Positions 1,025 through 64,000 of a stretch of 64,000 nucleotides of DNA are shown here, one piece after another (positions within the stretch are counted from its first letter, which is position 1; every line of letters begins with the position of its first letter). This stretch comes from a virus, in the IMG/VR virus record IMGVR_UViG_3300045988_145683, positions 1 to 64,000 of that record. One strand, given 5' to 3'. A model generated the notes under the pieces. It ran no database searches, was not told the DNA's origin, and saw nothing but the letters and a program-made list of their open reading frames with translations. The translations under genes and the position numbers were made by a program.

Positions 1025-1765
1025 ATGAATGTTGTATATAAAATTACTAATTAGACTAATAAAAAATCTTATATAGGCTCAAGTACTCGTGTTGAAACTA
1101 GATGGAAATAGCACATTAATAATGCTTTTAATCTAAATAATTCAAATTATTTTTATCCTTTATAGTGTGCTATTAGAAAATATGGAGTAGAAAATTTTAC
1201 TTTTGAAATTTTAAGAAATGATTTTAATGATGTTAATTCGATGGAAACTTATGAGCATCAAATGATTTTAAAATATAATTCTTTATGTCCTAATGGATAT
1301 AATTAGACTGAAAATACTAAATCTAATATTATCGCTCTTGAGAATACTCAAAAGCATATAAAAAAAATTAGTAAAAAATGTGCTTTAGTAAATGAATAGA
1401 ATGAAATTATTTCTATTTATAGTTCTTATCATGAAGCTGCAAGAGCTCAAGGGTGGGATGGCGATAAAAGAGCTACGACAATAAAAAAAATATGTGATGG
1501 AGAAGCTCATAGTTGTAATAATTTAATTTTTCGATCATTGGATGAAAATAATAATGTTATAATTCCAAAAGCAAAAACTCGAAAAAGACGTACCAAAATA
1601 AAAGGAATTAATATAAATAACCCAAATGATATTGTTTACTATGATAGTATTAGCGAAGCTGCTCGAAAAGAAAAAGTAGATCGAAGTAGTTTAAGTAAAT
1701 GTCTCGCTGGATCAAGTAGATATAGCAAAGTTGGTGGACGAAAATGGGAAAGGATAGGTGATTAA
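1025..1765 (+). CDS. free-standing GIY-YIG homing endonuclease (I-TevI-like), 5 in-frame TAG codons
   Basis: ATG at 1025. Reading TAG as Gln gives MNVVYKITN-Q-TNKKSYIGSS...RWK-Q-H...AIRKYGVENFTFEIL. The C-terminal NUMOD/HTH-like tail DSISEAARK...SSLSKCLAG corresponds to track ORF 1538..1765. TAA stop. Confidence 0.75.
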
Positions 1766-1768
1766 AAT

Positions 1769-2336
1769 ATGGGTGCTATCTTTTTAACAAGTGATATGCA
1801 CTTTGGTTAGCCATGACCGTGAATTTATTTGGAAAGCTCGTGGTTATTCTTCAATTAAAGAAATGAATGAAGATTACGTCGAGAAATGGAATAGCATCAT
1901 TTCTGATGAAGATGACGTTTATATTCTTGGTGATCTAATGCTTGGAGAACCTTCTAATATTGAATATATTAAACGTCTTAAGGGCAAATTCCATATTGTA
2001 TTTGGCAACCATGATACAGCAACTCGGCAGAAGCTTTACGCGGACTTGCCTAATGTTGTTGAAATGAACTGGGCGATTATGCTAAATTATCGTAAATACC
2101 ATTTCTTTATGACCCATTTCCCTTGTATGACTGGTAATCTTGAAAGAGAAAATCTTCATCAAATGACTTTAAATCTCTATGGTCATACTCATCAAACCAC
2201 TAATTTCTTTGAAGATCGACCTTATATGTATCATGTAGGTGTTGACTCTCATCATGGCTATCCCATTAATCTTGATGTAATCATTGATGCTATGAAAGCT
2301 AAAGTTGAGGAATGTAAATCATTTCTTGATGAATGA
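1769..2336 (+). CDS. calcineurin-like metallophosphoesterase; needs a +1 frameshift at GGT TAG C (about 1805-1811)
   Basis: ATG 1769 opens MGAIFLTSDMHFG (D-x-H motif I) in frame A. That frame then reads TAG CCA TGA. Motifs GDLM and GNHD are in the +1 frame (track ORF 1791..2336, GTG start). Total length is 3n+1. Confidence 0.55.
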
Positions 2337-2346
2337 GGAAAACTAA

Positions 2347-2610
2347 ATGGCACTTTATGATTATAAAGGTAATGATTTAACAAAAAAACTCATTACTGGA
2401 AAAATGTCTTATGAAGATTGGGAAAAATTAGTAACAAGACAAATGGAAGAAGCAATTTACAAAGAAGTAAAAGAAAAATTGGAACAAGGTCCATTGGGTG
2501 TAGAAATCTCTTTCTTATGGGATGAAGATGGAGAATTTGAACATAATGGATACTATAATTCGATTGATGATGCTATTGAGGCATTATTCAAATATAAGTA
2601 TAAAATTTAA
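2347..2610 (+). CDS. hypothetical protein
   Basis: Track ORF. GGAAAAC RBS. TAA stop. Confidence 0.4.
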   Translation: MALYDYKGNDLTKKLITGKMSYEDWEKLVTRQMEEAIYKEVKEKLEQGPLGVEISFLWDEDGEFEHNGYYNSIDDAIEALFKYKYKI

Positions 2611-6260: not shown

Positions 6261-7562
6261 ATGACTAATATTGAAATAACTTGGAATTATTTATATAAAC
6301 AAATAAAAAACCCTTATGGAACGGCCGGGCTAATGGGAAACTTAAAAGCTGAATCAAATTTTAATCCAAAAAATCTTCAAAATAGTTTTGAAAAGACACT
6401 TGGATTAAATGACGAATAGTATACAAAACAAGTAGATAATGGTAAATATACTAATTTTATTTATGATAAAGCTGGATATGGTTTAGCTCAATGGACTTAT
6501 TGGAGTCTTAAAAAACAATTATATGATTTTACAAAAAAGAAAAATACTTCAATAGGAAACTTAAATACACAACTTGAATTTTTAATTTATCAACTTTCTA
6601 CATATTATCCTACCGTTTGGAATACTTTAATAAATTGTAAAGATATATAGACTGCTTCAAATATAGTTTTAACATAGTTTGAACGACCAAAAGATTAGAG
6701 TTTAAAAATCCAATAGTAGAGATTATATTATGGAGTTGAAATATATGATCAATTTATAGAAAAAGGTGAAAATATGAAAATTGTAGATAATTTAACAACA
6801 TCTAATTATCAAAAAGGTAATAATAGAAAAATAAAATATATTGTAATACATTATTTTGGTTCTTTAGGGACTGCAAAAAATATTAGTAATTATTTCAAAA
6901 ATCCTGTCGCTAAATCATCAGCTCATTATTGTGTTGATGAAAAAGATATTATTTATCGTAGTGTTAAAGATGAAGATATTGCTTGGCACTGTGGCACAAG
7001 AAAAGGATATAAACATCCTGAATGTAGAAATGCCAATTCTATTGGAATTGAAGTAAGACCTTGTAAAATAAATAAATCTAATATTGTAGCCAGTGATACT
7101 GATTGGTATTTTGATCCAAAAGCATTAGAAAATACGATACAATTAGTAAAACAATTAATGTAGAAATACAATATACCTGCGGACCACGTTATTCGCCACT
7201 ATGATGTAACTGGTAAATTATGCCCTCGTCCATTATGCGGAACTGACATGAATAGTTATTATAGAACAAGTGGCGATTACCAATGGTAGTTATTTAAACA
7301 AAAAATTGGTGATAATATAAATATTAATGAGGAGGATGAAGATATGACTTAGGATAAATTTAATGAGATGATGGAAGTTTATTTAAATCAACAAGCCGAA
7401 AAAAATGCAAGTTCTTGGTCTGATACGGAAAGAACTTGGGCTGAAAGTAAAGGATATATTAAAGGCGATAATTTAAATCGTAAAATGTATAAAAAATTTA
7501 TGACTCGTGAAGAAATGATTGTAGTTCTTTATAGAATTATGAAAGATAAAGGGTTGGTGTAA
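6261..7562 (+). CDS. modular peptidoglycan hydrolase / endolysin: tail-lysozyme-like domain + Amidase_2 + SLH-like C-terminal domain; 9 in-frame TAG codons
   Basis: Track ORFs 6774..7163 and 7368..7562 and the upstream segment from ATG 6261 are all in one frame. They are separated only by TAG codons (about 6415, 6648, 6676, 6700, 6718, 6721, 7162, 7279, 7348). Domain 1 has G(L/M)GNLKAES...GLAQW. Domain 2 is an amidase_2/PGRP-like fold (IVIHYFGS..., HYCVDE, GIEV). The C-terminus WAESKGYIKGD...MTREEMIVVLYR fits an SLH consensus. Confidence 0.75.
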
Positions 7563-7563
7563 T

Positions 7564-45804: not shown

Positions 45805-45836
45805 CGATCTTCAATAACTCCTTTCTATAAATTAAT

Positions 45837-45866
45837 GGTATAGAATTAATTAATAATTCTATACCA
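45837..45866 (-). terminator. possible rho-independent terminator
   Basis: Hairpin GGTATAGAATTA...AATTCTATACC. Weak T-run. Confidence 0.35.
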
Positions 45867-45876
45867 TTTAGTTTAT

Positions 45877-46497: not shown

Positions 46498-46502
46498 TTA
46501 TC

Positions 46503-48182
46503 TTACCCCTTAATCTTAAAAGTTCCTGGTTTTGATTTTCTTTCACCTTTCTAGATAATTACAGCTACTTGAGTAATATTTTCATCTACTTCTGTTGAAT
46601 TTTCAGAAGTTGTTTTTTGAGTAAGACCATTCGCATTTTTCCATTGATATTCATAAATACCATTGCCTAACTCACTAGTATTTTCGAGTTTAACAATATA
46701 TTTTCCATTTTCAATTGAAACTTCTTTAATAACAGGAACTAAATTAGTTGGGTCAAAATAATTAGTAAAACTAATTGTAGGATAATCTATATTATCTTTA
46801 TTTTTATAACCATGAACTGATAAAGTATAATTATCCTCTTCAGTTAAAGTTACAGTTTTTTCAGTGCTAAAATCAGAGCCATTCTTTTTCCAAAGATAAG
46901 TACACTGAACGCCTTCATCATTCTATCCAACAGCAGTAATAGTATTAGAAGAACCATAATAACATCCATTATCAGGGGAAGGATCAAGAACAATTCTAAA
47001 ATCTTCACTAATTCCTTCAACAGAAATAGCTAATCCAGCCCATTTAACTTCTTTACTTACTTGATTGGCAGTTGTACCAAATGCGGTAACGCTATAACTT
47101 CCACATCCATCAACTTCGCAGTATTGAACTTTTAGGTAGAGATCGTTTTTCTTAGCAGTATAGTTCTCAAGATTAATATCACTGCTACTATTAATATAAG
47201 AGTCTCCATTTTTAGTGAAATAAGTTAATTTCTCATTATAAACCATATCTCCACTAAAAATACTATTATCTTCAATAATTTTCTTATATTCATAGCCAAT
47301 GCCGCTTTTTAATTCAGTATTAGTTCCTCTATAATTACAAATCCATTTATACTCAATAGTAGTATTATCTGGATTATTTAAAGTATCATTATAAGCTAAA
47401 GCATATAACTTATCACCAGTTAAATAAACTGATTTATTATTTAAAATACTTGTTAAGAAAGCAACATTATCAGGAACACCAAAACCAGCAGATTTCTTTG
47501 AGTCAATTAGGCTTTCTAAATAACCAGTTAAATAATCAACAGGCTAAGCGGTAATTAAATCTTCGTCAATATCTAAAGTTTTATTAATAACCATTTGCGC
47601 TGGTAATGTATTAAATACATACATTAAATTATTATTATCTTTTGGATTCTTTTTAAAGAAAATAATAGAAAACTATAAAGTACCAGATTCACTAGTCACT
47701 TCATCACTAATTTGCCATCCAAAAATCAATTTTCCAGCAGTTCCGATATCAGGACAAATAGCTTCAGAATAACCTTGAACTTGATCGTTTAAATAATACT
47801 AAATATAAATTTTAATATCATCAGCTGCTAAATCTTGTAAATCAAAATATCTATCAATTTGAAAATAAATTGTTTCTGCCAAATGATCGTTTTCAACAGT
47901 AAGTAATTGTGTTTTTCCAAATTCTTTAGTTAATTCAATTTGACGAGTATCAGCATTTATATTTATAATAGGTTCATCTAAAGGTATACGAAGAACAGAT
48001 GGATCTAATTTCTTCATTTGAACGATACCAGTGATATTACTATAATAGTCTTCAATAGATTTTATTTCAACGATTTTTCCATTAACGTTTTTTATTGAAT
48101 TATCTTTAGCTAAAGTATTGATTTTCTTTTGAAGTTCTTCCCATTTAGCTTGTTCGATAACGCTATCATTTTTAACTATCAA
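46503..48182 (-). CDS. virion structural protein (baseplate / receptor-binding-like), TAG-containing
   Basis: GAAAGGAAGAG RBS then TTG 48182. Track ORFs 47799..48182 and 46923..47246 are in the same frame and both end in TAG. Read-through reaches TAA 46503. Confidence 0.5.
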
Positions 48183-48198
48183 ATCTATCTCTTCCTTT

Positions 48199-48250
48199 CT
48201 AAAAAATTAGGTTAAATAGTTTCTTTTCCTATTTAACCTAATTTTTTTTA
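48199..48250 (-). terminator. rho-independent terminator
   Basis: Stem AGGTTAAATAG...CTATTTAACCT with T-runs on both sides. Confidence 0.5.
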
Positions 48251-48277
48251 TATTTAAATCAATGTATTCTGGCCTAT

Positions 48278-48478
48278 TTAAACCTCATACCATTCTTCTA
48301 ATTCATCCTCGGGAACTAAGGGAGAGATGGAAAAGAATTCTTTTCCATCTCTCGTTAATTTTTTATTATAATCCGCAATTAATCTATATAATTTAGTCGC
48401 AGGCACTCCTGCTAACTATATAGAAGATTCAATAATGCCATTAGAACCCATATATCTATAAACAATTTCTTTTTCCAT
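48278..48478 (-). CDS. small hypothetical protein (1 in-frame TAG)
   Basis: ATG 48478 lies 8 nt downstream of the giant gene's TGA. TAG at 48416. TAA at 48278. Confidence 0.35.
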
Positions 48479-48487
48479 ATTTTATCC

Positions 48488-51400
48488 TCACTTTACAATA
48501 GGTTCTTCTTCAAAGTTTGCTCTATTAGATATCATTGCTTCATAAATTCTATGTAAAGTATTCTTAACACTTTCACCATAACTAGCAACATAATAATATC
48601 TAAAACGACCTGTATATCCATTAGCGACAGTAGGCATACCTGTTTGACGAGGGGTAAAAATATTACCAGAACTATCTACCGTAATCTATTTAATTGGATG
48701 TTTATTAGTGCCAATCTATACTTGAATAGCACCAGTATAACCCTTAAACTAATTACCAGACATATTTAAAATTGTCTAACCAGAGAACGCATTTACATCA
48801 AAGTTAAGAATACCATCTTTACATCCCTCTATAATTAAATTATAAGGAGAATAAGACCCCATCTTACTTTGATAGAATGCTTGAGCTCCAAAAGTCAAAC
48901 CTTCCGTAGAAGAAGAATAAGGAATTATATTATTACGACTTAAAGGACATTGATAAAATGCCTTAATGCCAATTTTCTTTAGACAATCACTAAATTGGAA
49001 ATATTCTAATCCACTATCTAAAATAAAGGCATAATCATCTATTACAGAAATTTTATTACTATCTTTTGGAGCAAAGAATATAGCAGTAATATTAGGATTT
49101 ACTTGAATACCAATTGCTGCTGATGGGTTAACTTGGCTATATTTAATTCTCGTAATTGGCTAACCATTATAAGTTGTAGGTAAAGTAATTTTGCCTTTTA
49201 AATTCTTAGCTAAGTCAGTCATTGCAAATGATAATTCTCCATCAGAATTTATAATATCATAATATTTATGAGTAGCATCATTAGTTAAAATATTATCATA
49301 AACACTAATTGGTTCTCCAACGGCATAAAACTCACGATCGGCATAAGCTAATTGTTTAGTTAAATCAATTTTAACTCCATCTTTATCCGCCCATCCAGTC
49401 TGTCTCCAAGTCCACTCTAATGGGTCTTCACCTTTTGGTAAATCAGTTACTTCTGCATTATTAAAATAATAAAATTCTTCTGGAACAGTAATTCTTTCAC
49501 CATAATTAAATACTTTTTTTACAGTTGAATCATTAATAACACGGTCACCATTGACAAAAGTGATTGTATAAGATTTGCGTTCAAATCTTGCTTTAAAAAC
49601 ATAATCTATTTTATTAGGTTGTAAAGACAAAGAATTCCAATTATTTTTTAAGACGACATCTTCTTCGTTTACATTTTTCCCAACAGTAATTACCAATTCT
49701 CCCGTATCGTCTTCCCAGCCTTTAAAATCATAAGTTGGCATTTTTTCTTGTAAACTACCAAAAGAAATATAAGTTTCACTAGAAAGAATAGTTGGATCAT
49801 CAAAAAACTTATCACTAGATGAAGACAATTTCTAAGTTTTTAAAACTTCCTAAACTATTACTCCATCGACGTCTTCTTTTTCTAAAATAAATTTAGCAGA
49901 ACATTCTTGTTTAACATTTTCTACAAAAATTATTAAATTAGGATATTTATTCTATAACTCATTTTGAATAACTGATTCATCAATTTGATTATTATTTTTT
50001 ATATATATAACACCAGATATTTCTGGTTTATTGGTATTAAGACCTCTATAATTATTATAAACATCAATTAACAAATTATAATCAGTTATTATATTATGTT
50101 CTTCATTATCTCCATTTATTGTATCTAAATAATAAATCTAATTATTTTTAATATCAGATTTTGTTATTTTACTAACCTAATCTTTTGAAATACTTGTTAA
50201 CTAAAAATGTCCGTTATCTCTATAATAAGATTTTTTTTCTGGATCAAGAGCTGTTTTAGTATCAGTTAAAAGTCTATAGGGGCTCCATTGAATATTGCTT
50301 AAATTAATAATACAATTAGATAAATCTAATTTACTATTTTCACTAGCTGAAACATATTTACGCAATAATTTATAACTATTATATCCTAAATTGCCACCTC
50401 GAATATCAAAAGTTTTTATCTCGGTTTTTTCTTGACCTTCAATAGCATCAGTAAGACCCTAAATATATAAACCACGATTTTCATCTAAAATTTCAAGTTT
50501 TCCAGTAGTTGAATTTTTTTCAGGATATACATAATTAGTTATTAATTTCGTTAATAAATTAGCTTCTATTAAACTTAAATAATTTGTTCGATTGGTTAAA
50601 TATAAAGTATTTAAAGCTACTCCAGGAGCAAAATTAACTCTTGGAATATTAGATTTAGTATTTCTAAAGTTTTCAAGCTTTTCGCTCTTAGTTAAATCTA
50701 ATGCTCCTTGGTCTTTTTTAAAGTTAATATTGCAAAGATTCATTTCTTTAAGTAAAGGCATTCCGCCTTTTGAGAAAGACCAATCGTTTACATCATTATT
50801 AAAATATTCATTACCACTTTCATCTTTCCCGTCATACCCTAATAACAAATCAGTTAAACGCTCCATTTTTCCTTCAGCAGCAAATTCTTGGAAATATAAT
50901 TTACTTAAATCACCGAGAGATTTCATTTGATCCATTCCATAAATATAATATAATTGTTCTTTATAATTACCGCTACTTATAATTCCTTTTTTAATATCAG
51001 GAGCTACATATTTAACTGGTTCTAAACCATTATATTTCTTTGAAGGAAAATTCTCTCCATCTGTACCAATAGTAACATAGGCATTGCGCGCGGGCTCCAT
51101 ACTAATCCAATATTCGCCATCAAACATATGATTTTTTTCTTCAAATTCAGCATTATTTTTCCAATATTGAGAATTTGTAATTAATCCATCCATATTCTAA
51201 GTATTAGTGCCTTCAATCCATTTATCAGATGTATTTTTAGGATTATTTGCAGAAATACGGCTTCTAATATAACTTCCTCCACCATTTCTGGCATAAGTAC
51301 CAACAGTTAACCAAGAGTCAATATAATTAAGACGATTGGCTAAAAATTGCGCACGATAAAGATTTCTATCTCCTTGTAAAGCATAAAAATATTTATCATC

Positions 51401-54400
51401 TTCAACCTCATATGACCCTCCGTCAGTTAAGCGACCAAACACTGGCATATTTTCAGCTTTAGAATTTGTTGGAATAATATACTTAAATTCTTCATCTAAA
51501 CTTAAAGCAATAATTGGTCGATCTCCCAAAGCAGCGTAGCTATCAAGAAATACTGATGGATCAGTACGATACCATTTATCTACAATATCACTTTTTTTAG
51601 CCCCGCTTCCGGCTCCTTTAGTAAAAATTTTATTTACTCTTGAATCATTTGGGCTATAAGAATTATTTTGAGTTCCCATTAATTGCTTATACTTATCCAC
51701 CATCTTACTTCTAAAGAAAGTGTAAAAATTATTCCAAAGAACACTATCGTTAGTTGAAAAACTTCCTTCTTCAGTAGCATCAATATAGTATTCAAAAGAT
51801 GGAATACCAGTATTATTAATACCTAATTGAGTATCAATATCATAAAAGATAGGATACCAAACATAATGTTGTTTGCCAGTAGATTTTTGAACATTGCCTT
51901 TTTGAGGCCCCCAAGAAGCAAACATTGCATTTTTTCCACGAGAATCATAACATTCAAAAATTTCTGTCATTAAAAGGTAAGAAGCTAAATATTCAATATC
52001 AAAGAAATTACTTAATTCATTTTTAAATTTAGCTTGACGGTATTCTTTACTATCTTTAGTATAAGTAATAGAGCCATAGGTTACTGGGTTAGGTAATTTC
52101 CATCTTTCCTCAATACCTTCTTCATTTTTATTAAAAGAATAATAATCTAAAGAAGAATTAAATTTATCAGAACTTAATACATAAATTTCATTTTTACTAT
52201 CAGTTAAAAGATAATAAATATTTGCTTTATATACTTTATCTGAATTATTTGTAAGTTTTATGCTTACATACTTTAAACTATTATTTTCATTAATCTACTT
52301 ATAATATCTTGTTTCAGAGTTATATTCTTCAGAAGCTAATTTATAAATAATTTTTCCATTTTCATTAACTCCATCTTCAACATAATAGACATTAGGAGCA
52401 TATATGGCTTCAGCTAATCCATCAACTTTAGTATAAACGCCCATAGATGGAATTTTTAATGTCTATCCATCATCAAATTCAATATCGCAATCTAAACAAG
52501 TACTCCATACCCAACTAACTGCGTCTTCCCAGTTAGACATTAAAGCTAAGAGCAATTCTTGTTTACTTGTATCATTAGCAACATTAAATTCTATTTCTTC
52601 TCCATCTGGATTCTTTATAATCCATTTAATAGATTTTACACCAGTAATTTCATCAACTATTTCTTTTTTAGTAAGTCTATCTGGGGCTACATTTTTTAAT
52701 TCTTCCTCAACAATCTTAGTCTATGTCCCATCTGGATCAAGCCATTCTTTTAAACTAAATAAATTATCAGCAATTAAATCATCATTTGGATTATATCTAG
52801 GCTCAAAAGAATCAATAACTTTTGGCGCACCTTTAATTAATTCAGGATTATCTCCGTCTGGAGGTATTACCATATTAGGATTTCTAAATGATAATTTATA
52901 ACGATTCCAAGGATCACGGAAAGAACAGAAAGTTCTTGAATTGTTCTAAAATTCCCAACATTCTGCTATATCTCTTACTTTAGGATTGCCCGTAATTTGA
53001 TTTTGTAAAATCTCTTTATTTGGTTTAAATCCAAAACATTCATCTGATCCTTTATCTAATAACATATTATATTTGCCAATAAAAATACAGTTATTACTAT
53101 TTTCCTTAGAGTAAGTATTATCATCGTTGGACATATAGTGGAAAGCTAAGACGGGGAATCCTTTTACCGAAGTGCGATAATCTTCTAAATTTCCATATAA
53201 ATTATAATTATCAAAAGAATCTTTATAGTCTTCTACTGGATGTTTAGAATAAATCTCGTTAACTAAATTAGCAAATCCTCTATTATAATCTCCAGAAGAT
53301 TCCATAAAATCTATCTTTAAAGTAAATTTAGTAGTACCAACTGTCTTATTATCCATATAAAACCATTCTAAATAGCAAGGATGTTTAGTTATATCTTCAT
53401 TATACTAATCTCCTGCTTTTTTATATTCTTCAGCAAATGGACCTCTATTTAAAAGCATTGATTCTTTGCATTTAGCTTTATAGTTACGACGAGGATAAAA
53501 TTGTGAAGAAGTGCCTTGAACTTGGAAAGTACACCCATTAAGAACAGTTATAAAACTAGGGCAATGATGTATATAATAATTCTATACAGCAGTATATTTT
53601 ATTATTTCTAACCCCGTCTCTTTATTTTTTTCAATTACAGGTTTCCATCCTTCTTTTATAGCAACTTTTTCTAATTCGCCACTATTATAAGCAGCATCTA
53701 AAGCCGTATTAACAAATTCTAAAGTTCCTTCCTAACTTCCTTTTGCTTTAGAATAAGGTAGTCTATTATCTGTGTTGTTTTTATTATTTTTAGTAGTTCT
53801 TAAAATAATATAAGGCATTAAAGGATCAGTAGGGTGATTATCATTATACTTTTTCATTTTAGTATAAGAGAATACATCGTCTTTTAATACCATATTGTTC
53901 TCATAAAGGTCTTTTTGATCCCATTGTTTTATACTTCTTTTATCAAAAGCATAATTTTGGACTATTTCAGGAATGGTTAAATCTGTATCATAAACTCTAA
54001 TACTATAAATATCAATATCACAAGTATTAGACATAAATTTAATGAAATCAGAATCAATATTCCAAACATCACTACTACAACGTACAACACTAGTTAAAAC
54101 GCCATTCATAAAAATTTCTAATAATTTAGAATTTCCGCCTTCTATATCACTTTTCTTTTTAGTATAAACAAATGAAAGATTTAACATTTCATTTTCAATA
54201 AAATCAACTGAAACTGTCTCTTGAGCGCCATTAGCCGTAAATACAGCATCCTATGGACTAAAATAAATACCAGGAGAAACAGAGCTTCCTAATTTACCAT
54301 ATGCACAGACTAAATTCTTTAAATTAAAATCTTGTTCTATTTTATTATACTCTAAATCATCATAGCTATAATTAGTTGTCGGTAAATATTCTTTAGTTAA

Positions 54401-56233
54401 AAACTCATCATAATTAAGATATTTATTTTGAGCTTTAAATTTATCCCAAGCATCATCATCTTCCCAATTATCTCTACTTACTTTATATCTAGTATATTTA
54501 GTTATAACTTTAGCATAATTTTGAGGATTCTTTATTTTAAATTGAATCTCAATAGTAGCAGATGATGATCCATCTTTAAAAGCCATTTTTCCGACTGGGA
54601 TAGATACTTCAGCACCATTGCTTACTCGTAAACAAGTCGTATTATTTTCATCAAAAACCCAACCATTATTATACCAATTAAAATTTTTAAATTCTACATA
54701 TTTATTATTATTAATTAAATAAGTTTCACGGCCTAATTTTCCCTCTGAATTAGAACGACCAGTAGCTATAAAATTAACTTTTAAATTATCTTTTTTTGCT
54801 AATTTCATATCTCTTAAAGGATCAATCAAAATTGTAAAATTAAAATTACGAGAATAAGAATAAGGATCAGTACCAACTTTAATAGTATAATAAGAACTAT
54901 CATCTACAGTTAAATTAGTAATTTCCCAATATTGCCATTCTCTAACTTGTGAACTATCTAATTCTCTAGTTCCTACTTGGACGCCATTCTTATAAAGAAT
55001 TATAAAAGCTCCATTATTATTTGGGTCTAATACTTTAAAAGGAATTCTTATTGTCTCATAAGTATAATATTCTGTCTTAAAATCTTGCACCCAAATTAAA
55101 GGCATTTTATTGCCTGGTTCTTGAATAACAATTTCCTTTTGAATAAAATCTGTTCCCGCGCCTTTTTTAGAATTATTCATTAAATACAACTTTGCTTTTA
55201 TTATATGCTCACCATGAGTAAAATAATTTTTTAAAGTAGAAACTTTGTCAACCCCTAATATATTTGTATCAGGAGTAATAACAAAAGAATCTTCAGAAGA
55301 AGAATCAGTATCACTATAAGTTCTATCTAAAACTAAATAATCATCAAAATAAACTTCAACAGATCTGGCGATATCTTCAGACATTAACCAACTAACAGAT
55401 ATTTGTTCATTATCAATTGGACTATCATTACTAAAACTACTTTCTTTCCAATTAAAAGAAAGATGATGTTTATTAATATTAATAGTATCAGAGCTTTTCT
55501 AAAATCTATTATTTTCTTTATCAGGATTATAATAAATACTAAAATTAATTTCACTAGAACATGAATTTCTTAAAATATTAGTTAAATCAATTTCTTGCGG
55601 AATATTGTGCTCATAAGTAGTAGGAGGAGAAGTATAATAAATTTCTTTTTCTGTAGCACTTTTAATTTCGCTTATAGTTATAATTCCTTGCACAGAAGAA
55701 GATTGCGGAACGCCACCAACAGTTCTACATTTAACCAAAACTTTTACTTTAACATTTTCTTCATTTAAGATATCAACAGGGCTGTCAGATGGAATTCTTG
55801 TTAAAGAAACAGTTCCTAAAACTTTTTGTTCAGAGTCTCCTTCTCCGCCACCGCCTGCCCCAGCGACAGTTAATTTTTCACATCTCGCACATTCTTCGCG
55901 GTTTTCATTTAAAGCAAAACCTAAAATTCGATAAAAACATCCGTCTAAATTTAAAATTAAATCATCTATATGACAATTTGTTATAGATAATTTTGATAAA
56001 AGAATTAAATAAGCCACTGGGTTTTCATCCGCATCATATTCAATTTCCACAGTATTATCTGTACCGTAAATTACCTGAACACCACTAGACCCTATTGGCA
56101 TTTTATTTTCAGTTGCCGTATCTAAATAAACTCGGCCTGTATCTGTTGCCACATAAAAATATCCATCGCTTTGAGGATATTCTTTTATTTTTTCTTCTGG
56201 GCCCTATACAGGACGAAAACGTATCTTAGACAT
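48488..56233 (-). CDS. giant virion structural protein (about 2580 aa; tail fibre / adhesin-like), more than 20 in-frame TAG codons
   Basis: GAAAGGAG RBS then ATG 56233. Track ORFs 55499..56152, 54251..55384, 53732..54187, 52946..53356, 51197..51970, 50459..51193 and 49160..49828 are all in one frame and all end in TAG. The gap 51971-52945 was checked codon by codon and holds only TAGs (52295, 52463, 52721). The first non-TAG stop is TGA 48488. Composition is beta-rich, N/T/S/Y-rich. Confidence 0.6.
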
Positions 56234-56252
56234 AATTTACTCCTTTCTATCC

Positions 56253-56290
56253 TAAAAAAAATATGGGGAAAGAATATTTCATCTTTCCCC
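56253..56290 (-). terminator. rho-independent terminator
   Basis: GGGGAAAGA...TCTTTCCCC stem followed on the minus strand by T8. Confidence 0.55.
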
Positions 56291-56351
56291 ATAAAAACAT
56301 TCTTCTATATAAAATAGAAAAAATTATATTTATTATTAAATAGTATTGCCC

Positions 56352-57998
56352 TTAGAATGTTCCCCACTCTAACTCAAAATTAACTTTAGCATCATCAGTC
56401 TTAGTTGCCGCAGAAACATTAACTTTTAAGCTATTACTAGTGAAAACAAGTGGTTTACCTTCAAGATCAGCACCAGCAACTTTAAGATTAGGAATTAAAG
56501 TATCAGTACCATTTACTGTATAATCTGCGTTGGCAATTTCTTGGTGAGTATTCTTTACAGTAAATGTTTTTTTAGTAGATTTAATTACATGGCCTTGAGC
56601 ATCAATTTCAGTTGGTTCATTAATAACAATAGTCTACTCATCGGCATAATTTTGAGAGACTGGAGTATTCACAGTTAAAGTATTACTGTGTTTAATAGTA
56701 ATTTCTTTCACTACTGAACCAGTTTGAGCCTTTACTTCTAACTCAATACCTTCTTCACCTTTAAGGACATAATTTAAAAGTTCTTTAGTAGGACCAAGCT
56801 TAATAATAAATCCAGCATTACTGTTATCATCAGCTCCTTCGACCTCAGTAACAGGATCATCAGCAGAAGGAACATAAGTCCAACTAATAGTACCAGTAAT
56901 AACACCATCAACTTCTTTGCCAGAAGCGATAATTAAATCTCCAGGACGTAAGTAATGACCGTTCCAAAGAGTGTCTTCAGCGCCAGTATAAATAAAGGTA
57001 TTACCTTTAGCAATTTCAGTAATATCAGCGCTATCATAAATAATGGCTCCATCTTTAACCTAGAATCCGCCACGGAATATCATAGCGTTAATAGTTCTAA
57101 GCTGATTATCAATATCTTGTTTACTATAAACAGGAAGAGTTAAAACACCATCTTTAAATTTATAACTGCCATCCTTGCCTTCTAAAGCAATTTCTGGATC
57201 AATATCAGCAGATAAAGTTGTACTATTATCAGCTCCTTCAACACCAGGACCGCTAATAGAAGCAGTAAAACCAGTACCATTAGCGTGATTAATTACGTTG
57301 ATATCATTAACTGCTTTATCAACACTTAAAGTATAACTACCAGCGGGGTTTTCAGCAATATTAACATTACTGCCAGCGATAATATTAAAATTACCCGCAT
57401 CAGTATCAGCATTTTTTAAATTAACATTTAAAGTTTTATCACTTAAAGAAGAGCTTAATTGATAATTAATTCCTTTTAAACTCAGTTTAACAGTGTCTAC
57501 ACCTTTATCATCAACTGCAGGAATTGCTTCCACTTGAATATAATCGCTACCAATAATATCATAAGTCTCAGTAATAATATTACCACTACTATCAGCAATA
57601 GTATTAGTTATAGAAACTCCATTAGGTTTTTCAGGATTACTATTTACTGATACATTACTATTTTTTTTACTAGTATCTAAAACAGTATCAGTGTTAGTTT
57701 GAATCCAACCTTTACCATTATTAATACATAAGATATTTTTATCTTTTACATAATAAAATTCGCCAGCAGTATTTTGGTTAAAACTTTGAGGTAAACCTGC
57801 GGTAGTATCAACTACATTAATACCTTGATTTACAGGAACACAATTATTTTCATCTACACCATAATAAAGACGACTTGGTTTTTTATAATCATCAGCGGAT
57901 TTATTATCATTAATTACTAAATAAAACGCACCAGGTTTATATCTACCTGCCACCTTTTCAAATTCGGCTTGAGAACCTTTTAAAAACTTAACGTTCAA
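56352..57998 (-). CDS. tail-fibre-like structural protein (about 548 aa), TAG-containing
   Basis: AAAGGAGTG RBS then TTG 57998. Track ORF 57060..57998 ends in TAG. Read-through reaches TAA 56352. N-terminal VKFLKGSQAEFEKV...GAFYLV domain is shared with two other fibre-like genes. Confidence 0.5.
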
Positions 57999-58012
57999 TC
58001 TTTTTCACTCCT

Positions 58013-58594
58013 TTAAATATCAGTCCAAGAAACAGTTTGTTCAACTGCTTCAACACGAGTTACCAAATTATCAGGACCCTTATCTACTAAATATTTATTA
58101 GCTATATTAATTGTTTCAATATCTCCCTAAGTTAATGTTCCTACTGGCATATCAATCCATGTACCAGCATCAGTAAGAATATGTTTTCCTTTAGTTTCAT
58201 GTAAAGAAACTGGAACTAAACCCGGAACCGTACCCTTAAAAACAGGAGCTAATTTAGCTAAATTTTCTTCCGTAGATAATTTTTCAACAATAGAATTAAT
58301 TAAAGTTTCATTATTTTCTAAGCCCTAATTAACCCATTTTTTTTGTTCTTCGTTATAAATTAAAACTTGATTTGTTTTAACTTCATTGAGAACAATATCA
58401 CTTAAATCGCTTAACTTACCCCCGGAACTAATTCCACCGCAAATTAAACGACTACCTAAATAAAGTTCTCCAGAAGAATCATTTTCCCCATAAATAAAAT
58501 ATAAAGTATCATTGTCTCTTTTGGTTCCTAAACTTTCAAAAGCAGTTTTAGAACCTCTAACAAATTTTACATATTTATTTAATGTATTAGGCAA
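58013..58594 (-). CDS. fibre-like protein sharing the conserved N-terminal domain (2 in-frame TAG codons)
   Basis: GAAAGGAG RBS then TTG 58594. VKFVRGSKTAFESL...TLYFIYG. Track ORF ends in TAG 58325. Read-through reaches TAA 58013. Confidence 0.45.
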
Positions 58595-58643
58595 GATAAT
58601 CGACTCCTTTCTATTATTTATAAAATCTTTTTAATCAATACTA

Positions 58644-58675
58644 AAAGGGTTTGGCCTATTAAGACCAAACCCTTT
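58644..58675 (-). terminator. possible rho-independent terminator
   Basis: Stem AAGGGTTTGG...CCAAACCCTT. Modest U-tract. Confidence 0.4.
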
Positions 58676-58682
58676 ATTTAAA

Positions 58683-60959
58683 TTAAGTTGTTTCAGATGG
58701 AGTATCAGTATTGTTTGAATTTTTCTTTAAAGCATCAACATCAGTTCTTAATCCAGTAATTAAATCATTTAATTCTGTATCTTTATCCTATAATGCTTTA
58801 ATAGTTTTATTCAATTCCGCGTTTTTAGTTTGTAAAACTACAATTAAATCAAACATTCCTGCTACTGTTTTAGCTCCATTATCTCCAGAAGTCGCATTAT
58901 ATGTAAGACCACGCACTGCGCTTTCATTTAATTTGCCACTTGCTAAAGTATTTATATCAGCTAATGTGCCAGTATAGCCACCTAAAAGATTAGTTTTTAA
59001 AGTATTTAAACTACTCATAGTAGCTACTTTATTACTATTGCTATAAGTTCCATCAAAAGCAATAGGTAAATCACTTTCTTGTAAAGCACTTCTTGAAACA
59101 GTTATTAAACCATCTTTTTCTTCTACTGCCGTAACAAATTGTTTATCTACTTTATTATCAGTTTTATCTAATTTATCAATAGCCTATTTAATACTATAAG
59201 CAACAGAATTAGTCGTAGATACAGTTCCATTTAATACATCAATTTTATCACTTAAATTGCTAATACTATCTCTATCAGCATTAATTCCCTATCTTAATCC
59301 ATAAAGAGTCGGGATAGTATCTTTACCAAAACTATTGTTAGATTGACCTAATAGAGTATTATATTTACTATCACTATTATCAATTAATTTACTAATACTA
59401 TCATTAAGAGTTGTATCTTTAGTAATAGTATTTAATTTATTGTTAATAATATACCCTTTGCCTAATGCTAAAGTTCCTAAATAAGATTTCTCACTACTTA
59501 AAGCTCCAGTAGTATCAGTAAAATTTAAAGAAGTAAAAACATTACCTTCTTTAGTATTAGTATAAGAGCCTTTTGGAATACTAACTGAAAATGTTTCTTC
59601 TTTTACAATATGTCCCGCTCTATCAGTAAATAATTTAGGTAAAGTAATAGAAGAACCAAAAGTACCAAAATCAACATCTTTGCCATAGCTTTTTGATGCT
59701 TTACTTACATCTAAATTATTATGAGTAATTTTAATAACTCCACTATTCTTCTCAATGTTCGCATCTACTGAAATCAAATTATCTCCTTCGATAGTCGCAG
59801 ATTTCATATAATTATCATTAATATCATTATCAGTTTCAGTAGAAAAATAAATAAGTTTATTAGTATCTAATTTATCTAAACTCATTTTTCTATTAAGGGT
59901 ATTCAAAGCACCTTTAATATTAGTTTTATCAAAATTAGTAGTAGAATCATCGCGATTTTGACCGTAAAGCAAGTCATAGGTATCACATACTGCATTACCA
60001 AGAGCAGGAAGCTTTACAACAAGAGATTTGCGGTCGTAGCCGTCTTCGATCGGCTCACCAACAACATTATCCTATGCTACATTATAATAAAATCTATATC
60101 CTGACTAACTTAATTTATAATTAATACTATTTTTTGTAGTATTATCGTAAGAACGTTTTGTTTTACTAAATCCTTCTTTATTATAATAAATATTATTATC
60201 GTCTAAATCAAGCTGGAAATTAGTAGGAACTCTTAATTTATAAAGTAAATTCGTGCTACTTTGATCTGTGGTTATCGCAGGTCCAAGCTCACTTTCTAAA
60301 TAATAAACGCGCCCCTCAGTTTTAGTATCATTATTATCTAATTTATAATGACTATCAGTTTCATCATAATAATAATACTTACCTGGTTGGTATACAATAC
60401 TAGCATTATCAATCGCAACATAGGGATCTTGAGGAAGTAGTGGGTAAATTGAAAAATTAGGAACAACAGTATTTAATTCAGCAATCTAAACATAAGTCTC
60501 TTGATTATTGATGTATTGTTTTATCCAAACTGTAGAATCATAACCGCGACCATAAACAGGATAATCTATTTGATAATTTAAATTATACTATTCATCATCG
60601 ACTCTATCATTAGTAATTCTAGTGAGATATTTCCACTCTTTAGTCCCGCTCGCGGTTACATTTCCCACATATAAATACCATTGGTTGCTTCTTTTAACTT
60701 TTACTAATTTTCCATTCTCACATAAAATAATATGAGAATCACTTCTATCAGAAGGATCATCATACATAATTTTATTATCAAGATATCCTACTAAATATTG
60801 AGTAGCAGGAAGGCCATATTCAACTAAAACATAGCGTCCTAAAAATATACCATCACTCGTACAACTATTATCCATTTGAAGTCTATTGCTATAAATTTTA
60901 TCAAAAGTAAAGGTTGTTTTTGAAGTATTAGTTATATTACCATAAAAACCCATTATCAA
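58683..60959 (-). CDS. large virion structural protein (about 758 aa), TAG-containing
   Basis: TTG 60959 overlaps the upstream TGA. Track ORFs 60588..60959, 59289..59972 and 58788..59018 are in one frame and all end in TAG. The gap 59973-60587 was checked and holds only TAGs (60072, 60105, 60486). TAA at 58683. Confidence 0.5.
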
Positions 60960-61300
60960 CCCTCCTCAAATAAATAATCTATAATAAGATATGCTTCTTG
61001 ATTTTGATTAATCAAATTCATAGAGCTTCTATCAAATTTAATTAAATTAATAGTAGAAATACCTTCTAAGTCTAATTCATAAATACCAGTATTTCCAACA
61101 ATAATAGCATTAGCGCTATCATTTAAATAAAATTTCGTTCCTGGCAAAGTCTAAATACCTAATTGAGTAATTAATACATTTTGATTATTATTTTTAAATG
61201 CAGCTCCTGTAATTAATTTACTCATATTAACATCACTTGGATAGTTCTTAGAATTAAGACCTTCACCATAATAACGAATTTGTCTTATCTTTCTTGCCAT
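60956..61300 (-). CDS. hypothetical virion protein (1 in-frame TAG)
   Basis: AAGGAGGA RBS then ATG 61300. Extends track ORF 60956..61147 through TAG 61151. TGA stop. Confidence 0.45.
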
Positions 61301-61313
61301 TTAGTGGTCCTCC

Positions 61314-63620
61314 TTAATATACTCTTGATATCGCTTTGGTGGCACTAATAGACATTGAACCATTATAAGTTAATGGAATAGTTATTTTATTAACTAAATA
61401 TTCTCCTTCAACGCCACTTCTTTTATCTTCAATATAAATTCTATTATTAGGCTCTAAATAATAAACTGGAATAGTAGAAATTGAAACGCTCTCCGCACAG
61501 TAAGCAGTCGTATAGAGCAAATCCTCAATCTCATCAACTGCGCTTTTACCCTTAGAACTAATCTTAAAATAATTATCATATCCAGAAGGGATATTGATCC
61601 AAATATATCCACTTTCTGTTGGATAGTTATTCTAAATAATAGAATCATAATCAGTCTATGTCATAAATAATACATCAGGTGTATCTCTATAACATATAAC
61701 TTTTACATTAGTATCATTAATTGCTTTTGTTCTATCTCCAATTAATTGGACTGAATATTTAGCAATATCCGCATTTTCTTCCCCAATAAAATCAAACCAG
61801 AAATTTAAATTCTCAGGATTATTTTTTACTTCTTCCTTGAAATCTAATTTATCATAATCATAAATATCTCTCCAAAAGGAGAATAAATCTACATAATAAG
61901 TCTCATAACCAGTTATTCCAGAAGGATAGAGGTCAGGATTCGCGGTCGCCACTTTACTGGTAAAATCATCTGCATAATTATATTGATAATAATCTACAGC
62001 CATACGATATAGAACTTCGCGCCAATCGCAATAAATAACTCCTGGTTCATTTTCACTTCGATACCACTTATTTTTATAAGTTTTTTGTTCTAATTGCGGA
62101 TTCATAGTATCAAAAATATCATTATTATACATTGTAGATTTATATCTATTTATATCATTATCATTTACAATAATCGTAGTATACTAAATAGGCTTTTGGT
62201 CTATCGCGTATCTTAGATGAATAGGAATCTCAGCACCACTCGCACTTTCTCTCTATCCCCAAATAGAAAAATCATTTCTTAAATTAGCAATCTGTGGAGT
62301 GTTGTTAAAAGAAATAATTGTCTATCCGTCTCTAAATGAATAAATTGAAGATGAAGAATAAACTGCAGGCTCAATATAACTATCTCCATTAGAATTATTC
62401 ACTATACTAGTCCAAGACTAATATTCATAAAATTTCTTTCTTTGGAAAATAAATCTACCATCTATATCATAATAATATTCAAAACAACTTAACATATTTT
62501 TAATTTTGTCTAACACGCTAGCCACATTTTCACCAACACTTGTAATAAGTTCTCCTGCATAGACTAAATCACAAATACGATAACCAACTGTTTCATTAGT
62601 TGTTCGACTTATAATAGTATAAATAGTTCCGTTATTTACCAGTCTTACTTTAGTCGGTTCAGAAGCGTCATCTAATAATTTATTACTATCTAAATTATCG
62701 AATTTAATACTACTCATATCAGTTATTTTATTATTATTTACATCTAATAAATCTGGCAATATCCCTATTGAAGCATTAACTATTCTATTAGTTTGCGCGT
62801 CTTTAAAAAAATACATAGTTTCATCACATTTATTAGCCAATAATTCATAACCATATTGATCTAAATCATTAATAACTATATTACTTTCTTTTTCTTTGCC
62901 ATAAACTGTAAGAAGTTTTTTAATAATAGTCTAAATAGGAATTTGAATTAAATTTAAATAACTTTCTCTTAAATAGTATTCTCTATTACTAAATTCTTCT
63001 TCATCTAAAACGTAATAAGTGGTTTGTTTATTCTAAGTAGAAATATAATAAACGTTATGTTTCTTAGCTTCTTCCTCACTATTGACAATATAGCAATATT
63101 TACCTTTTATATAGTTATCTTTAGTTATATTATCTTGTTTATTATAAGTATAAGTAATTACTTCTTCCTATCCAAAATCTATAGAAGCAGGTAAATCTCC
63201 TCCCAAATCTCCATTTAATAAACACATTTTGTCTTTACCTTGAATAGAAATGCTATATGAGCTAGCACTTTGAGAAGTATTAAAAGACGTAATTAAATAA
63301 ATGCCTTGATTAAACCAAATAATATCTGGATATTTATTATCAATTTTATTTTCTAATCCAATAGCCAAACTAAACTTAGAATTTAAACCCCAAGAATATT
63401 GTTTATATAATTTCTCATTTGTGGCCATAGTAAGAGAACAAGACCGGCGGACCGCAGATGTTCCATCAATATTAATTGATCCACCGGTTATCTTACCCTC
63501 TATACTTTCTATTGGTAATTCATCAAATGTTAGTAATTCAATACGAGCATAAACTACTTTATGTTTAAATTCATCTAACTTTTTAAGAAAGTCGGTATCA
63601 TATTGTCTTTGAGTCTTCAT
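61314..63620 (-). CDS. large structural protein (about 768 aa; baseplate-like), TAG-containing
   Basis: Track ORFs 63168..63620, 62418..62840, 61656..62132 and 61314..61520 are in one frame. The three upstream ones end in TAG. The gap 61521-61655 was checked and holds only TAGs (61632, 61656). TAA stop 61314. Confidence 0.45.
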
Positions 63621-64000
63621 AATCCTCTACCGCCTTTCTTAAAGTGTCAATAAATAAAGTATATGTTTCATCAACTGTCTTTTGTAATCCTGCTACTTTA
63701 TTATTATAATTTTTTATACAAGTCTAAATATTATTCTAATTCACATTATAGAATGGATCATCTTTAGTGAAATCAGGATTACTTTTATCTTGTTCTAATT
63801 CTTTAAAATCTTTTAAGGCCTTCTTAGCTCTTAACCAATTTTGCTTTAATTGATAAATTGTGGTTGTAATATAATTCTAACCATTAAAAATTCTATAAGT
63901 AGTTTGATTATCATTTTCAAAAGAATAAACTACTTCTTGACGTTGGACTGATAATTCGCATAAAACACCTGGATCGACTTCAATAGAAGTAATATCAGTT
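63598..64000 (-). CDS. partial structural gene (C-terminal part; N-terminus beyond the window)
   Basis: Open minus-strand frame from the window edge down to TGA 63598, overlapping the start of the next gene. Confidence 0.35.

What the first reader, a model, noticed from the sequence alone, without database searches (positions are those of the whole stretch)
1025..64000. Amber (TAG) is a sense codon, almost certainly glutamine: genome-wide stop-codon recoding
In two independent GIY-YIG endonuclease genes, an in-frame TAG sits exactly at invariant Gln positions: YIG-Q-S at 37087 and 1052, and RWK-Q-H at 1106. Dozens of adjacent same-frame track ORFs separated by single TAG triplets fuse into domain-coherent proteins. 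Examples are the lysin (tail-lysozyme + amidase + SLH), DnaB (N- and C-domains), the DHH enzyme (DHH + DHHA1), the Dda helicase, RuvC, and structural proteins up to about 2580 aa. Every merged ORF I derived has a length divisible by 3 and ends at TAA or TGA. Every track ORF that appears to end with TAG (26071, 17647, 20939, 39188) has an in-frame TAA/TGA 6-40 codons later. No suppressor tRNA or release factor gene is in this window, so the decoding machinery must lie elsewhere in the genome or come from an unusual host.
Basis: partly seen in the sequence, partly recalled or inferred. Interest (0 to 1): 0.85.

Follow-up and report, generated by a model that had tools for sequence, protein, structure and literature searches.

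The report
Gut phage reads amber as glutamine
This 64-kb piece of a roughly 190-kb gut phage reads the TAG stop codon as glutamine, mostly in its late and lysis genes; this kind of recoding (genetic code 15) is already well documented, and near-identical genomes carry the matching suppressor tRNA 30-40 kb outside the window.

Summary
The core observation holds. Treating TAG as sense raises ORF coverage (ORFs of at least 100 aa) from 77.6% to 94.5%. It fuses fragments into proteins whose Pfam/PHROG domains run unbroken across TAGs. All 50 genes I defined end at TAA or TGA.

The amino acid is glutamine. Of 107 in-frame TAGs, 99 are covered by relatives and 58 align to CAA/CAG in some relative. 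Gln is the best fit by about 80 log-likelihood units. In relatives with at most one in-frame TAG, window TAG sites align to Q as often (41.5%) as the window's own Gln codons do (47.3%).

Recoding is uneven. TAG makes up 28% of Gln-like codons in late genes. It is absent from 19 of 36 forward-strand genes, including Pol III alpha.

The window has no tRNA or release factor. Genomes 95-98% identical carry a tRNA(CUA) 30-40 kb upstream, followed by an HDV-like (theta-type) ribozyme.

Some reader details are wrong: the context of TAG 1052, coordinate 1106 (really 1109), "invariant Gln", and the SLH domain.

This is known biology (code 15 phages), and public gene callers already translate this lineage correctly. 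It is a new member of a known kind. Side observations near the suppressor tRNA, including a 23S rRNA helix 43/44 mimic, are more unusual.

The parts
1025..1765 (+). GIY-YIG/NUMOD homing endonuclease with 5 sense TAGs (1052, 1109, 1163, 1304, 1397). It is a mobile insertion that is absent from close relatives.
   Evidence: Translation and sequence. Pfam GIY-YIG residues 2-93 spans 3 TAGs. In L047-L052 the AAA_33 gene is followed directly by Metallophos_2.
6261..7562 (+). Endolysin (Phage_lysozyme2 + Amidase_2) with 9 sense TAGs (6417, 6648, 6675, 6696, 6714, 6717, 7161, 7287, 7350). It is the most TAG-dense gene on the forward strand.
   Evidence: Pfam domains are unbroken across TAGs. Strain variants swap TAG and CAA at codons 341 and 364. 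Public protein P0001 has Q at all 9 sites.
20952..22484 (+). DnaB-like helicase with 2 sense TAGs (21018, 21126).
   Evidence: Pfam DnaB N + DnaB_C. Codon 23 is Q in 8 of 8 TAG-free relatives.
24445..26193 (+). DHH/DHHA1/RecJ_OB exonuclease-like protein with 6 sense TAGs (24652, 24922, 25180, 25450, 26071, 26140).
   Evidence: Pfam. Codon 566 is Q in 10 of 10 TAG-free relatives.
28144..29337 (+). Dda/RecD-like SF1 helicase with 1 sense TAG (28780).
   Evidence: Pfam AAA_30 + UvrD_C_2. The site is Q in 11 of 11 TAG-free relatives.
31007..34993 (+). DNA polymerase III alpha-type replicase. It has no TAG among 48 Gln codons and can be read in either code.
37036..37596 (+). GIY-YIG homing endonuclease inserted inside nrdD (35573-36913 and 37716-38741), with 2 sense TAGs (37087, 37504).
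   Evidence: nrdD is uninterrupted in most relatives, and the insert is present only in L021, L023 and L030.
38738..39232 (+). NrdG activase with 1 sense TAG (39188) 14 codons before its TGA stop.
   Evidence: Pfam Fer4_12 residues 15-154 spans the TAG. The site is Q in 10 of 10 TAG-free relatives.
40833..41378 (+). RuvC-like Holliday junction resolvase with 3 sense TAGs (41004, 41181, 41271).
   Evidence: PHROG 159/827 match residues 14-171 across all three TAGs.
42232..64000 (-). Late/structural module. All 14 genes contain TAG (64 TAGs in total, 28% of Gln-like codons). It includes the 2581-aa protein at 48488-56233 (23 TAGs) and the tail protein at 61314-63638 (9 TAGs).

Best explanation
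The window is part of a 160-200 kb tailed phage from gut metagenomes. Its replication genes resemble those of Bacillota phages. The phage uses genetic code 15: TAG is translated as glutamine, while TAA and TGA remain stops.

Decoding is done by a phage-encoded amber suppressor tRNA(CUA). This tRNA resembles the phages' own tRNA-Gln (U1, G73, shared D-arm), has a long variable arm and no encoded CCA. A minimal HDV-like (theta-type) ribozyme follows it and probably cuts its 3' end. The gene sits in a tRNA array 30-40 kb upstream of the window in near-identical genomes.

TAG use is graded. Many early replication genes lack it and can be made by the unmodified host. The lysin, homing endonucleases, some replication and recombination genes, and every late structural gene need suppression. 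Their expression is therefore gated on accumulation of the suppressor (the Borges et al. model).

Shown: TAG is sense and equals Gln; TAG is biased to late genes; the suppressor tRNA is present in close relatives.
Inferred: the identity of the charging enzyme; the temporal switch; how host RF1 is outcompeted.
For: - ORF continuity and coverage.
- Domains unbroken across TAGs.
- Codon-level alignments: 58 of 99 covered TAG sites have CAA/CAG in a relative, only 1 has TAA/TGA, and lnL for Q exceeds the next residue by about 80.
- Relatives with at most one in-frame TAG show Q at window TAG sites at the same rate as at true Gln codons.
- TAG and CAA swap between strains 98% identical.
- TAG fraction is 10.6% on the forward strand against 28% in late genes, Fisher p = 4e-8, and Pol III alpha has 0 TAG in 48 Gln codons.
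- tRNA(CUA): ARAGORN and Rfam tRNA 57.8 bits at L297:7965-8053. The identical 54-nt core occurs in five close contigs, including one 95-98% identical to the window.
- Similarity of the suppressors to the phages' tRNA-Gln.
- HDV-like match immediately 3' of the tRNA.
- Literature: Borges et al. (10.1101/2021.08.26.457843), Peters et al. PMC9523058, Kienbeck et al. PMC10879173.
Against: - The suppressor tRNA was not seen in the window's own genome, only in relatives 95-98% identical.
- Its long variable arm is a class II feature (Ser/Leu/Tyr) and atypical for tRNA-Gln.
- The ribozyme match (26.1 bits) is below Rfam's gathering score (44).
- No release factor or RF1 antagonist was found, so it is unexplained how 23 TAGs in one gene are read efficiently against host RF1.
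- About 75-90 kb of the relatives' genomes was not examined.
- There are no expression or proteomic data.
Confidence: 0.93

Rival explanations
1. TAG is sense but encodes an amino acid other than Gln, for example Ser, Leu or Tyr. This is suggested by the class II-like long variable arm of the suppressor tRNA. Pyrrolysine is another candidate, since ARAGORN labels the tRNA that way.
For: The tRNA(CUA) is 90 nt with a variable arm of about 20 nt. ARAGORN names it tRNA-Pyl.
Against: The aligned-residue spectrum strongly prefers Q: lnL -618, against Ser -759, with Leu and Tyr outside the eight best-fitting residues. Several sites are invariant Q in TAG-free relatives. The tRNA has U1 and G73 and shares its D-arm with the phages' tRNA-Gln, unlike their Ser, Tyr and Leu tRNAs. 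Sister phages have class I (74-75 nt) CUA tRNAs. The 'Pyl' label is only ARAGORN's name for any CUA anticodon.
Confidence: 0.03
2. The genome uses the standard code. Under this reading the TAG-interrupted ORFs are pseudogenes, assembly errors or genuinely split genes.
For: Standard-code ORF calls still cover 77.6% of the window.
Against: Interruptions are exclusively TAG. TAA or TGA never interrupt a 2583-codon ORF in a 31% GC genome. The same TAGs are conserved in dozens of independent assemblies. Domains continue across them. Relatives have CAA/CAG at the same sites.
Confidence: 0.01
3. Decoding is supplied by the host, either a host with a reassigned TAG or a host suppressor, rather than by the phage.
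For: There is no tRNA or release factor in the window or within 10 kb on either side of it.
Against: Close relatives carry their own tRNA(CUA) in a phage tRNA array. Many early genes avoid TAG entirely, which makes sense only if the host reads TAG as stop. By the literature, hosts of such phages use the standard code.
Confidence: 0.03

Closest known systems
Code 15 (TAG to Gln) recoded gut phages: Ivanova et al. 2014 (own knowledge); Borges et al. 2021/2022 clades Lak, crAss-like, Jade, Sapphire, Agate, Topaz, Garnet (10.1101/2021.08.26.457843); proteomic proof in crAss-like phages, Peters et al. 2022 (PMC9523058)
   Same: TAG aligns with Gln. TAA and TGA remain stops. Recoded codons are concentrated in structural and lysis genes, with variable use in replication genes. 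The suppressor tRNA(CUA) is phage-encoded. The source is gut metagenomes.
   Different: Clade assignment was not tested because there is no terminase in the window. The replicase is Pol III alpha type, closest (38%) to SPbeta-like and Enterococcus phages, so this is not crAss-like or Lak. No relative above 60% aa identity exists in the GenBank phage collection. No RF2 was found. The lysin sits in the early-strand region, far (about 36-46 kb) from the suppressor, unlike the Jade 'code change module' directly upstream of lysis genes.
Theta ribozyme-associated suppressor tRNAs (Kienbeck et al. 2024, PMC10879173)
   Same: A minimal HDV-like fold starts 1-2 nt after the discriminator base of a tRNA(CUA) that lacks an encoded CCA, in a gut Caudoviricetes genome predicted to use code 15.
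   Different: The match is only sub-threshold, to the related Rfam family RF02682 (26.1 bits against gathering 44). The authors' RNArobo descriptor was not run and cleavage was not tested.
phAss-1 / 'Phassvirus' group of TAG-recoded gut phages (Babkin et al. 2023, PMC10607447)
   Same: A large gut phage with TAG in many characteristic ORFs and suppressor tRNA genes.
   Different: phAss-1 is 136 kb. Its GenBank relatives (BK046881, BK025033) should be in the phage collection, yet nothing there exceeds 60% identity to this window's polymerase or tail protein. It is therefore a different lineage.

Membership tests
Genetic code 15 phages (TAG = Gln) | In-frame TAGs inside conserved genes, with ORFs and domains continuing across them | tested here: met
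   107 TAGs in 31 of 50 genes. Coverage rises from 0.776 to 0.945. Pfam/PHROG matches are unbroken across TAGs.
Genetic code 15 phages (TAG = Gln) | TAG positions align with glutamine in homologues | tested here: met
   58 of 99 covered sites have CAA/CAG in relatives. Gln is the best-fitting residue by about 80 lnL. Q occurs at 41.5% in relatives with at most one in-frame TAG, against 47.3% for true Gln codons.
Genetic code 15 phages (TAG = Gln) | TAA and TGA are retained as stops | tested here: met
   Genes end at TAA (40) or TGA (10). Making TGA sense adds little coverage (0.811). Only 1 of 99 TAG sites aligns to TAA/TGA in any relative.
Genetic code 15 phages (TAG = Gln) | Phage-encoded suppressor tRNA with CUA anticodon | tested here: met
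   Not in the window. It is present in five close contigs (L297, L308, L357, L364, L365), one of which is 95-98% nt identical to the window, 30-40 kb upstream. It was not verified in the window's own genome.
Genetic code 15 phages (TAG = Gln) | Recoded codon enriched in late and lysis genes, with early genes compatible with the host code | tested here: met
   TAG is 28% of Gln-like codons in late genes against 10.6% on the forward strand (p = 4e-8). The lysin has 9 TAGs. Pol III, GyrB, ligase, primase, NrdD and PhoH have none.
Genetic code 15 phages (TAG = Gln) | Phage-encoded release factor (RF2), seen in some members only | tested here: inconclusive
   No GGQ-motif ORF in the window or in any of the 363 loci held at the time. 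About 75-90 kb of the relatives' genomes was not seen.
Genetic code 15 phages (TAG = Gln) | Gln found in TAG-spanning peptides by proteomics | not testable with these tools
   Needs mass spectrometry of virions or infected cells.
Theta (minimal HDV-like) ribozyme next to tRNA-Sup | HDV-like nested double-pseudoknot fold with its cleavage site at the tRNA 3' end | tested here: inconclusive
   L297:8055-8109 matches RF02682 over the full model with a shortened P4, at 26.1 bits (gathering 44) and E = 0.006 in a 361-nt search. It starts 1-2 nt after G73.
Borges clades Jade / Sapphire / Agate | Placement in the large-terminase phylogeny | not tested
   There is no terminase gene in the window or in the loci held. 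Only genome size (160-200 kb) is compatible.

The most novel reading that the evidence does not exclude
The code switch in this lineage may use more than a suppressor tRNA. In the close contigs examined (L297, L308, L357), the tRNA(CUA)-ribozyme unit is followed within about 110 nt by a conserved, co-oriented RNA. This RNA mimics 23S rRNA helix 43/44, the L11-binding GTPase-associated centre, and carries compensatory base changes. The same core occurs in tRNA arrays of two other phage lineages that carry CUA tRNAs. It could act as a decoy for ribosomal protein L11, or for another factor that binds this centre, and so weaken RF1-dependent termination at UAG or block the stringent response. That would help explain how genes with up to 23 TAGs are read through. 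The suppressor itself, Gln-like with a class II-length variable arm, may also be an undescribed tRNA architecture.
Probability: 0.1. Interest if true: 0.85.

Novelty: new member of a known kind. Interest (0 to 1): 0.33.

Why it matters
For annotation, this window must be translated with table 15. Under table 11 about a fifth of the coding sequence is lost, and the lysin, the tail genes and a 2581-aa structural protein are shattered.

Biologically, it adds a large phage of Bacillota type, with a Pol III alpha replicase, to the set of amber-recoded gut phages. It also shows the expected gradient: early genes are readable by the host, while lysin and late genes depend on the suppressor. This supports the idea that recoding times lysis and assembly.

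None of this is new in kind. The more interesting leads lie at the suppressor locus outside the window.

Tried and rejected
- Rfam scan of the window at gathering thresholds found nothing. ARAGORN found no tRNA in the window or within 10 kb on either side.
- The GenBank phage collection holds no close relative: best 38.7% for Pol III alpha and 34% for the tail protein. No annotated genome could therefore be read.
- Distant lysin homologues (120 proteins) were uninformative. Most cover only about 40% of the query, and the TAG sites sit in variable, mostly acidic or basic columns. The lysin's own Gln sites are also only 11% conserved.
- A regex for the release-factor GGQ motif in six-frame translations of the 363 loci held at the time gave 0 hits.
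- A predicted tRNA(UCA) in L308 has a mismatched acceptor stem and 45% GC. I regard it as doubtful, and TGA-as-sense gains almost no coverage.
- A group I intron around the nrdD homing endonuclease was not detected by Rfam even at E <= 1. Whether this is an intron or 'genes in pieces' is left open.
- A literature search for a phage 23S rRNA or L11 decoy found nothing relevant. The L11-RF1 link is itself debated: Sato et al. 2006, cited in PMC11903333, report equal effects on RF1 and RF2.
Full report
**What the window is.** The window is 64 kb with 30.6% G+C. The forward strand from 1 to about 42 kb carries early and replication genes:
- a P-loop kinase, metallophosphatase, flotillin-like protein and PhoH;
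- a lysin;
- GyrB/GyrA-like topoisomerase, ligase, a ThyX-like protein (my reading of the translation; no Pfam match), DnaB, primase, a DHH/RecJ-like protein and a Dda-like helicase;
- a Pol III alpha-type polymerase, NrdD/NrdG, dUTPase and a RuvC-like resolvase.

The reverse strand from 42.2 to 64 kb carries large late genes, including a tail protein and a 2581-aa protein.

Related IMG/VR contigs are 160-200 kb. One has the polymerase gene spanning its ends, which suggests a circular or terminally redundant genome. The nearest cultured relatives of the polymerase are SPbeta-like Bacillus phages and Enterococcus phages, at only about 38% identity. The GenBank phage collection holds nothing closer.

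**Checking the observation.** Reading TAG as sense raises coverage by stop-to-stop ORFs of at least 100 aa from 77.6% to 94.5%. Reading TGA as sense adds little (81.1%). TAA-as-sense merely creates noise in this AT-rich DNA, giving 239 ORFs.

Under TAG = sense I defined 50 genes holding 107 in-frame TAGs. All end at TAA (40) or TGA (10). A 2583-codon ORF with 23 TAGs and no TAA or TGA cannot arise by chance at this base composition.

Single, unbroken profile matches run across TAGs:

| Match | Residues | TAGs spanned |
|---|---|---|
| Phage_lysozyme2 | 3-165 | 6 |
| Amidase_2 | 188-324 | 1 |
| GIY-YIG (gene at 1025) | 2-93 | 3 |
| DnaB N-domain | 13-96 | 2 |
| DHH | 66-210 | 2 |
| RecJ_OB | 473-571 | 2 |
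| Fer4_12 (NrdG) | 15-154 | 1 |
| RuvC-like PHROGs | 14-171 | 3 |

At three of those TAGs relatives carry CAA, CAG or GAG. At 26071 they carry TAG or assorted sense codons, never a stop.

Several reader details are wrong.
- TAG 1052 lies in ITN*TNKKSYIGSS, not after YIG.
- The RWK*H TAG is at 1109, not 1106.
- These two sites are K and G/E in paralogous endonucleases, so they are not invariant Gln.
- No SLH domain was detected in the lysin.
- There are three GIY-YIG genes, not two. The third (15777-16796) spells YVG-Q-A and RWK-Q-H with ordinary Gln codons, which gives mild internal support.

**Which amino acid.** I fetched 365 related loci. I mapped every window codon to the aligned codon in relatives by tblastn.
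- Of the 107 window TAGs, 99 are covered by relatives.
- At 58 sites some relative has CAA or CAG. At only one site does a relative have TAA or TGA.
- Counted once per site, the codons aligned to TAG are TAG (95), CAA (48), CAG (33), GAA (19) and AAA (18). CAA is two substitutions from TAG, so mutational proximity does not explain this ranking.
- A likelihood comparison used substitution spectra taken from the same alignments. It puts Gln first (-618), then Lys (-699), Glu (-700) and Ser (-759).
- The reverse comparison agrees: relatives' TAGs fall on window CAA at 95 sites.

Thirteen relatives at 49-62% identity have at most one in-frame TAG in about 5000 aligned codons each. Against these, window TAG sites align with Q in 41.5% of cases. 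The window's own CAA/CAG codons do so in 47.3%. Five sites are invariant or nearly invariant Q.

Between strains 98% identical, TAG and CAA swap at two lysin codons.

A public protein cluster with 715 members is this lysin with Q at all nine TAG positions. The gene calls for two long public contigs give the intact 433-aa product. Current pipelines therefore already read this lineage in code 15.

**Distribution of TAG.** TAG (107) is used more often than CAG (81), though less than CAA (445). It makes up 28% of Gln-like codons in the 14 late genes, all of which contain it. On the forward strand it makes up 10.6% (Fisher p = 4e-8).

Nineteen of 36 forward-strand genes have none. These include Pol III alpha (0 of 48 Gln codons), GyrB, ligase, primase, PhoH, NrdD and dUTPase.

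Forward-strand genes that do use TAG include the lysin (9), the three homing endonucleases, the DHH protein (6), the RuvC-like resolvase (3), DnaB and the ThyX-like protein.

'Genome-wide' is therefore better put as 'graded, strongest in late and lysis genes'. This is the pattern Borges et al. describe.

**The decoding machinery.** The window has no tRNA, no Rfam family and no release-factor motif. There is none within 10 kb on either side in relatives.

Walking upstream found a first tRNA array 15-20 kb to the left, carrying Thr, Ser, Ser, Leu, Gly, Lys, Met and Cys. More distant relatives had CUA tRNAs sharing the anticodon stem-loop CGGTCTCTAAAACCG. Scanning IMG/VR for that 15-mer hit close contigs.

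A second array there contains a 90-nt tRNA(CUA):
- ARAGORN predicts it, and Rfam scores it as tRNA at 57.8 bits.
- Its exact 54-nt core is in five close contigs, including IMGVR_UViG_3300045988_126226, which is 95-98% identical to the window.
- By locus overlaps it lies roughly 30-40 kb upstream of window position 1.
- It has U1 (mismatched with U72) and G73, and lacks an encoded CCA. It shares U1 and G73 with the phages' own tRNA-Gln genes, and the L217 suppressor shares its D-arm with L217's tRNA-Gln(CUG). Their Ser, Tyr and Leu tRNAs lack these features.
- It carries a long variable arm of about 20 nt, which is unusual for tRNA-Gln. Sister lineages have 74-75-nt versions.

Immediately 3' of it is a sub-threshold but full-length match to an HDV-like ribozyme (RF02682, 26.1 bits). 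This fits the theta ribozymes that Kienbeck et al. found next to suppressor tRNAs.

I found no release factor. How host RF1 is outcompeted over 23 TAGs in one gene remains unexplained.

**Mechanism.**
- Shown: TAG is a Gln sense codon; its use is biased to late and lysis genes; the lineage encodes its own tRNA(CUA).
- Inferred from the literature model: early genes are translated in the host's standard code. Once the suppressor accumulates, TAG-containing lysin and structural genes become translatable, which times lysis and assembly.

**Comparison and novelty.** This is a member of the known class of code 15 gut phages. By size it could belong to Borges' Jade, Sapphire or Agate clades, but that was not tested. 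It is not crAss-like, Lak or the phAss-1 group by the evidence available. The finding is correct and useful for annotation, but not surprising to a specialist.

**Side observations near the suppressor, outside the window.** About 110 nt after the ribozyme lies an element that matches the helix 43/44 (L11-binding) region of 23S rRNA.
- Its conserved core TTAGAAGCNNCCATCNTTTAAAG occurs in 6 of 363 loci and never in the window.
- Compensatory changes keep helix 43 paired.
- No rRNA gene is nearby.
- It is co-oriented with tRNAs in three lineages.

A role as a decoy for L11, which might affect RF1 or the stringent response, is a speculation I could not test.

Several tRNA genes in these arrays carry short tRNA-like inserts in their anticodon loops.

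Noticed in passing
L297:8161-8249 (also L308:8935-8957 minus strand, L357:3226-3248 minus strand, L217:7572-7594, L261:1583-1605 minus strand, L304:8044-8066): An isolated mimic of 23S rRNA helix 43/44 (the L11-binding GTPase-associated centre) sits inside phage tRNA arrays, co-oriented with the tRNAs. In the close relatives examined (L297, L308, L357) it lies about 110 nt after the suppressor tRNA-ribozyme unit. Compensatory changes keep helix 43 paired, helix 44 is replaced by a longer hairpin, and no rRNA gene is nearby. Rfam LSU match: 15.9 bits, E = 0.0066. It may be a protein decoy; I found no literature on it.
   Followed up: partly
L297:7965-8054 and L364:1688-1777: The amber suppressor tRNA of this lineage resembles tRNA-Gln (U1, G73, tRNA-Gln-like D-arm) but has a class II-length variable arm of about 20 nt, a U1:U72 mismatch and no encoded CCA. 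Sister lineages have ordinary 74-75-nt CUA tRNAs.
   Followed up: partly
L127:3188-3330 and L211:12808-12950 (tRNA-Lys UUU); L297:6599-6761 (tRNA-Pro UGG); L297:7503-7701 (tRNA-Glu UUC): tRNA genes are interrupted in the anticodon loop by 68-123-nt inserts, too short for group I introns. The 68-nt insert has its own acceptor stem, T-arm and GCCA end. The insert in tRNA-Pro itself scores as a tRNA (35.1 bits). Intact alleles exist in sister strains.
   Followed up: partly
window 35573-38741: The anaerobic ribonucleotide reductase gene nrdD is split by an insert of about 800 bp carrying a GIY-YIG endonuclease (37036-37596). Most relatives have an uninterrupted nrdD; L021, L023 and L030 share the insert. 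This resembles the T4 nrdD intron with I-TevII (own knowledge), but Rfam finds no group I intron, so a 'genes in pieces' arrangement is not excluded.
   Followed up: partly
window 1025-1765: This GIY-YIG/NUMOD endonuclease gene is a strain-specific insertion between the AAA_33 kinase and Metallophos_2 genes and is absent from six related contigs. It has the highest TAG share of any gene (5 of 8 Gln-like codons).
   Followed up: partly
L211:10734-11585 and L211:11599-11727; L127:1144-1969: The tRNA-Leu(UAA) gene carries a 736-764-nt intron in some strains (with an ORF inside it in L127). A RAGATH-33 RNA (126.8 bits) lies immediately downstream of it in L211.
   Followed up: no
window 423-956 and 1788-2336; L048:2615-3994: A polynucleotide-kinase-like P-loop protein (AAA_33/KTI12), metallophosphatases and, a few kb upstream in relatives, a protein with a faint RNA-ligase match lie between the tRNA arrays and the window. 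Together they look like a tRNA-repair set.
   Followed up: no
window 56352-58630 (minus strand): Two adjacent late ORFs (551 and 206 codons) have no ATG for their first 307 and 160 codons. They may use non-ATG starts or be joined to their neighbours by frameshifting.
   Followed up: no
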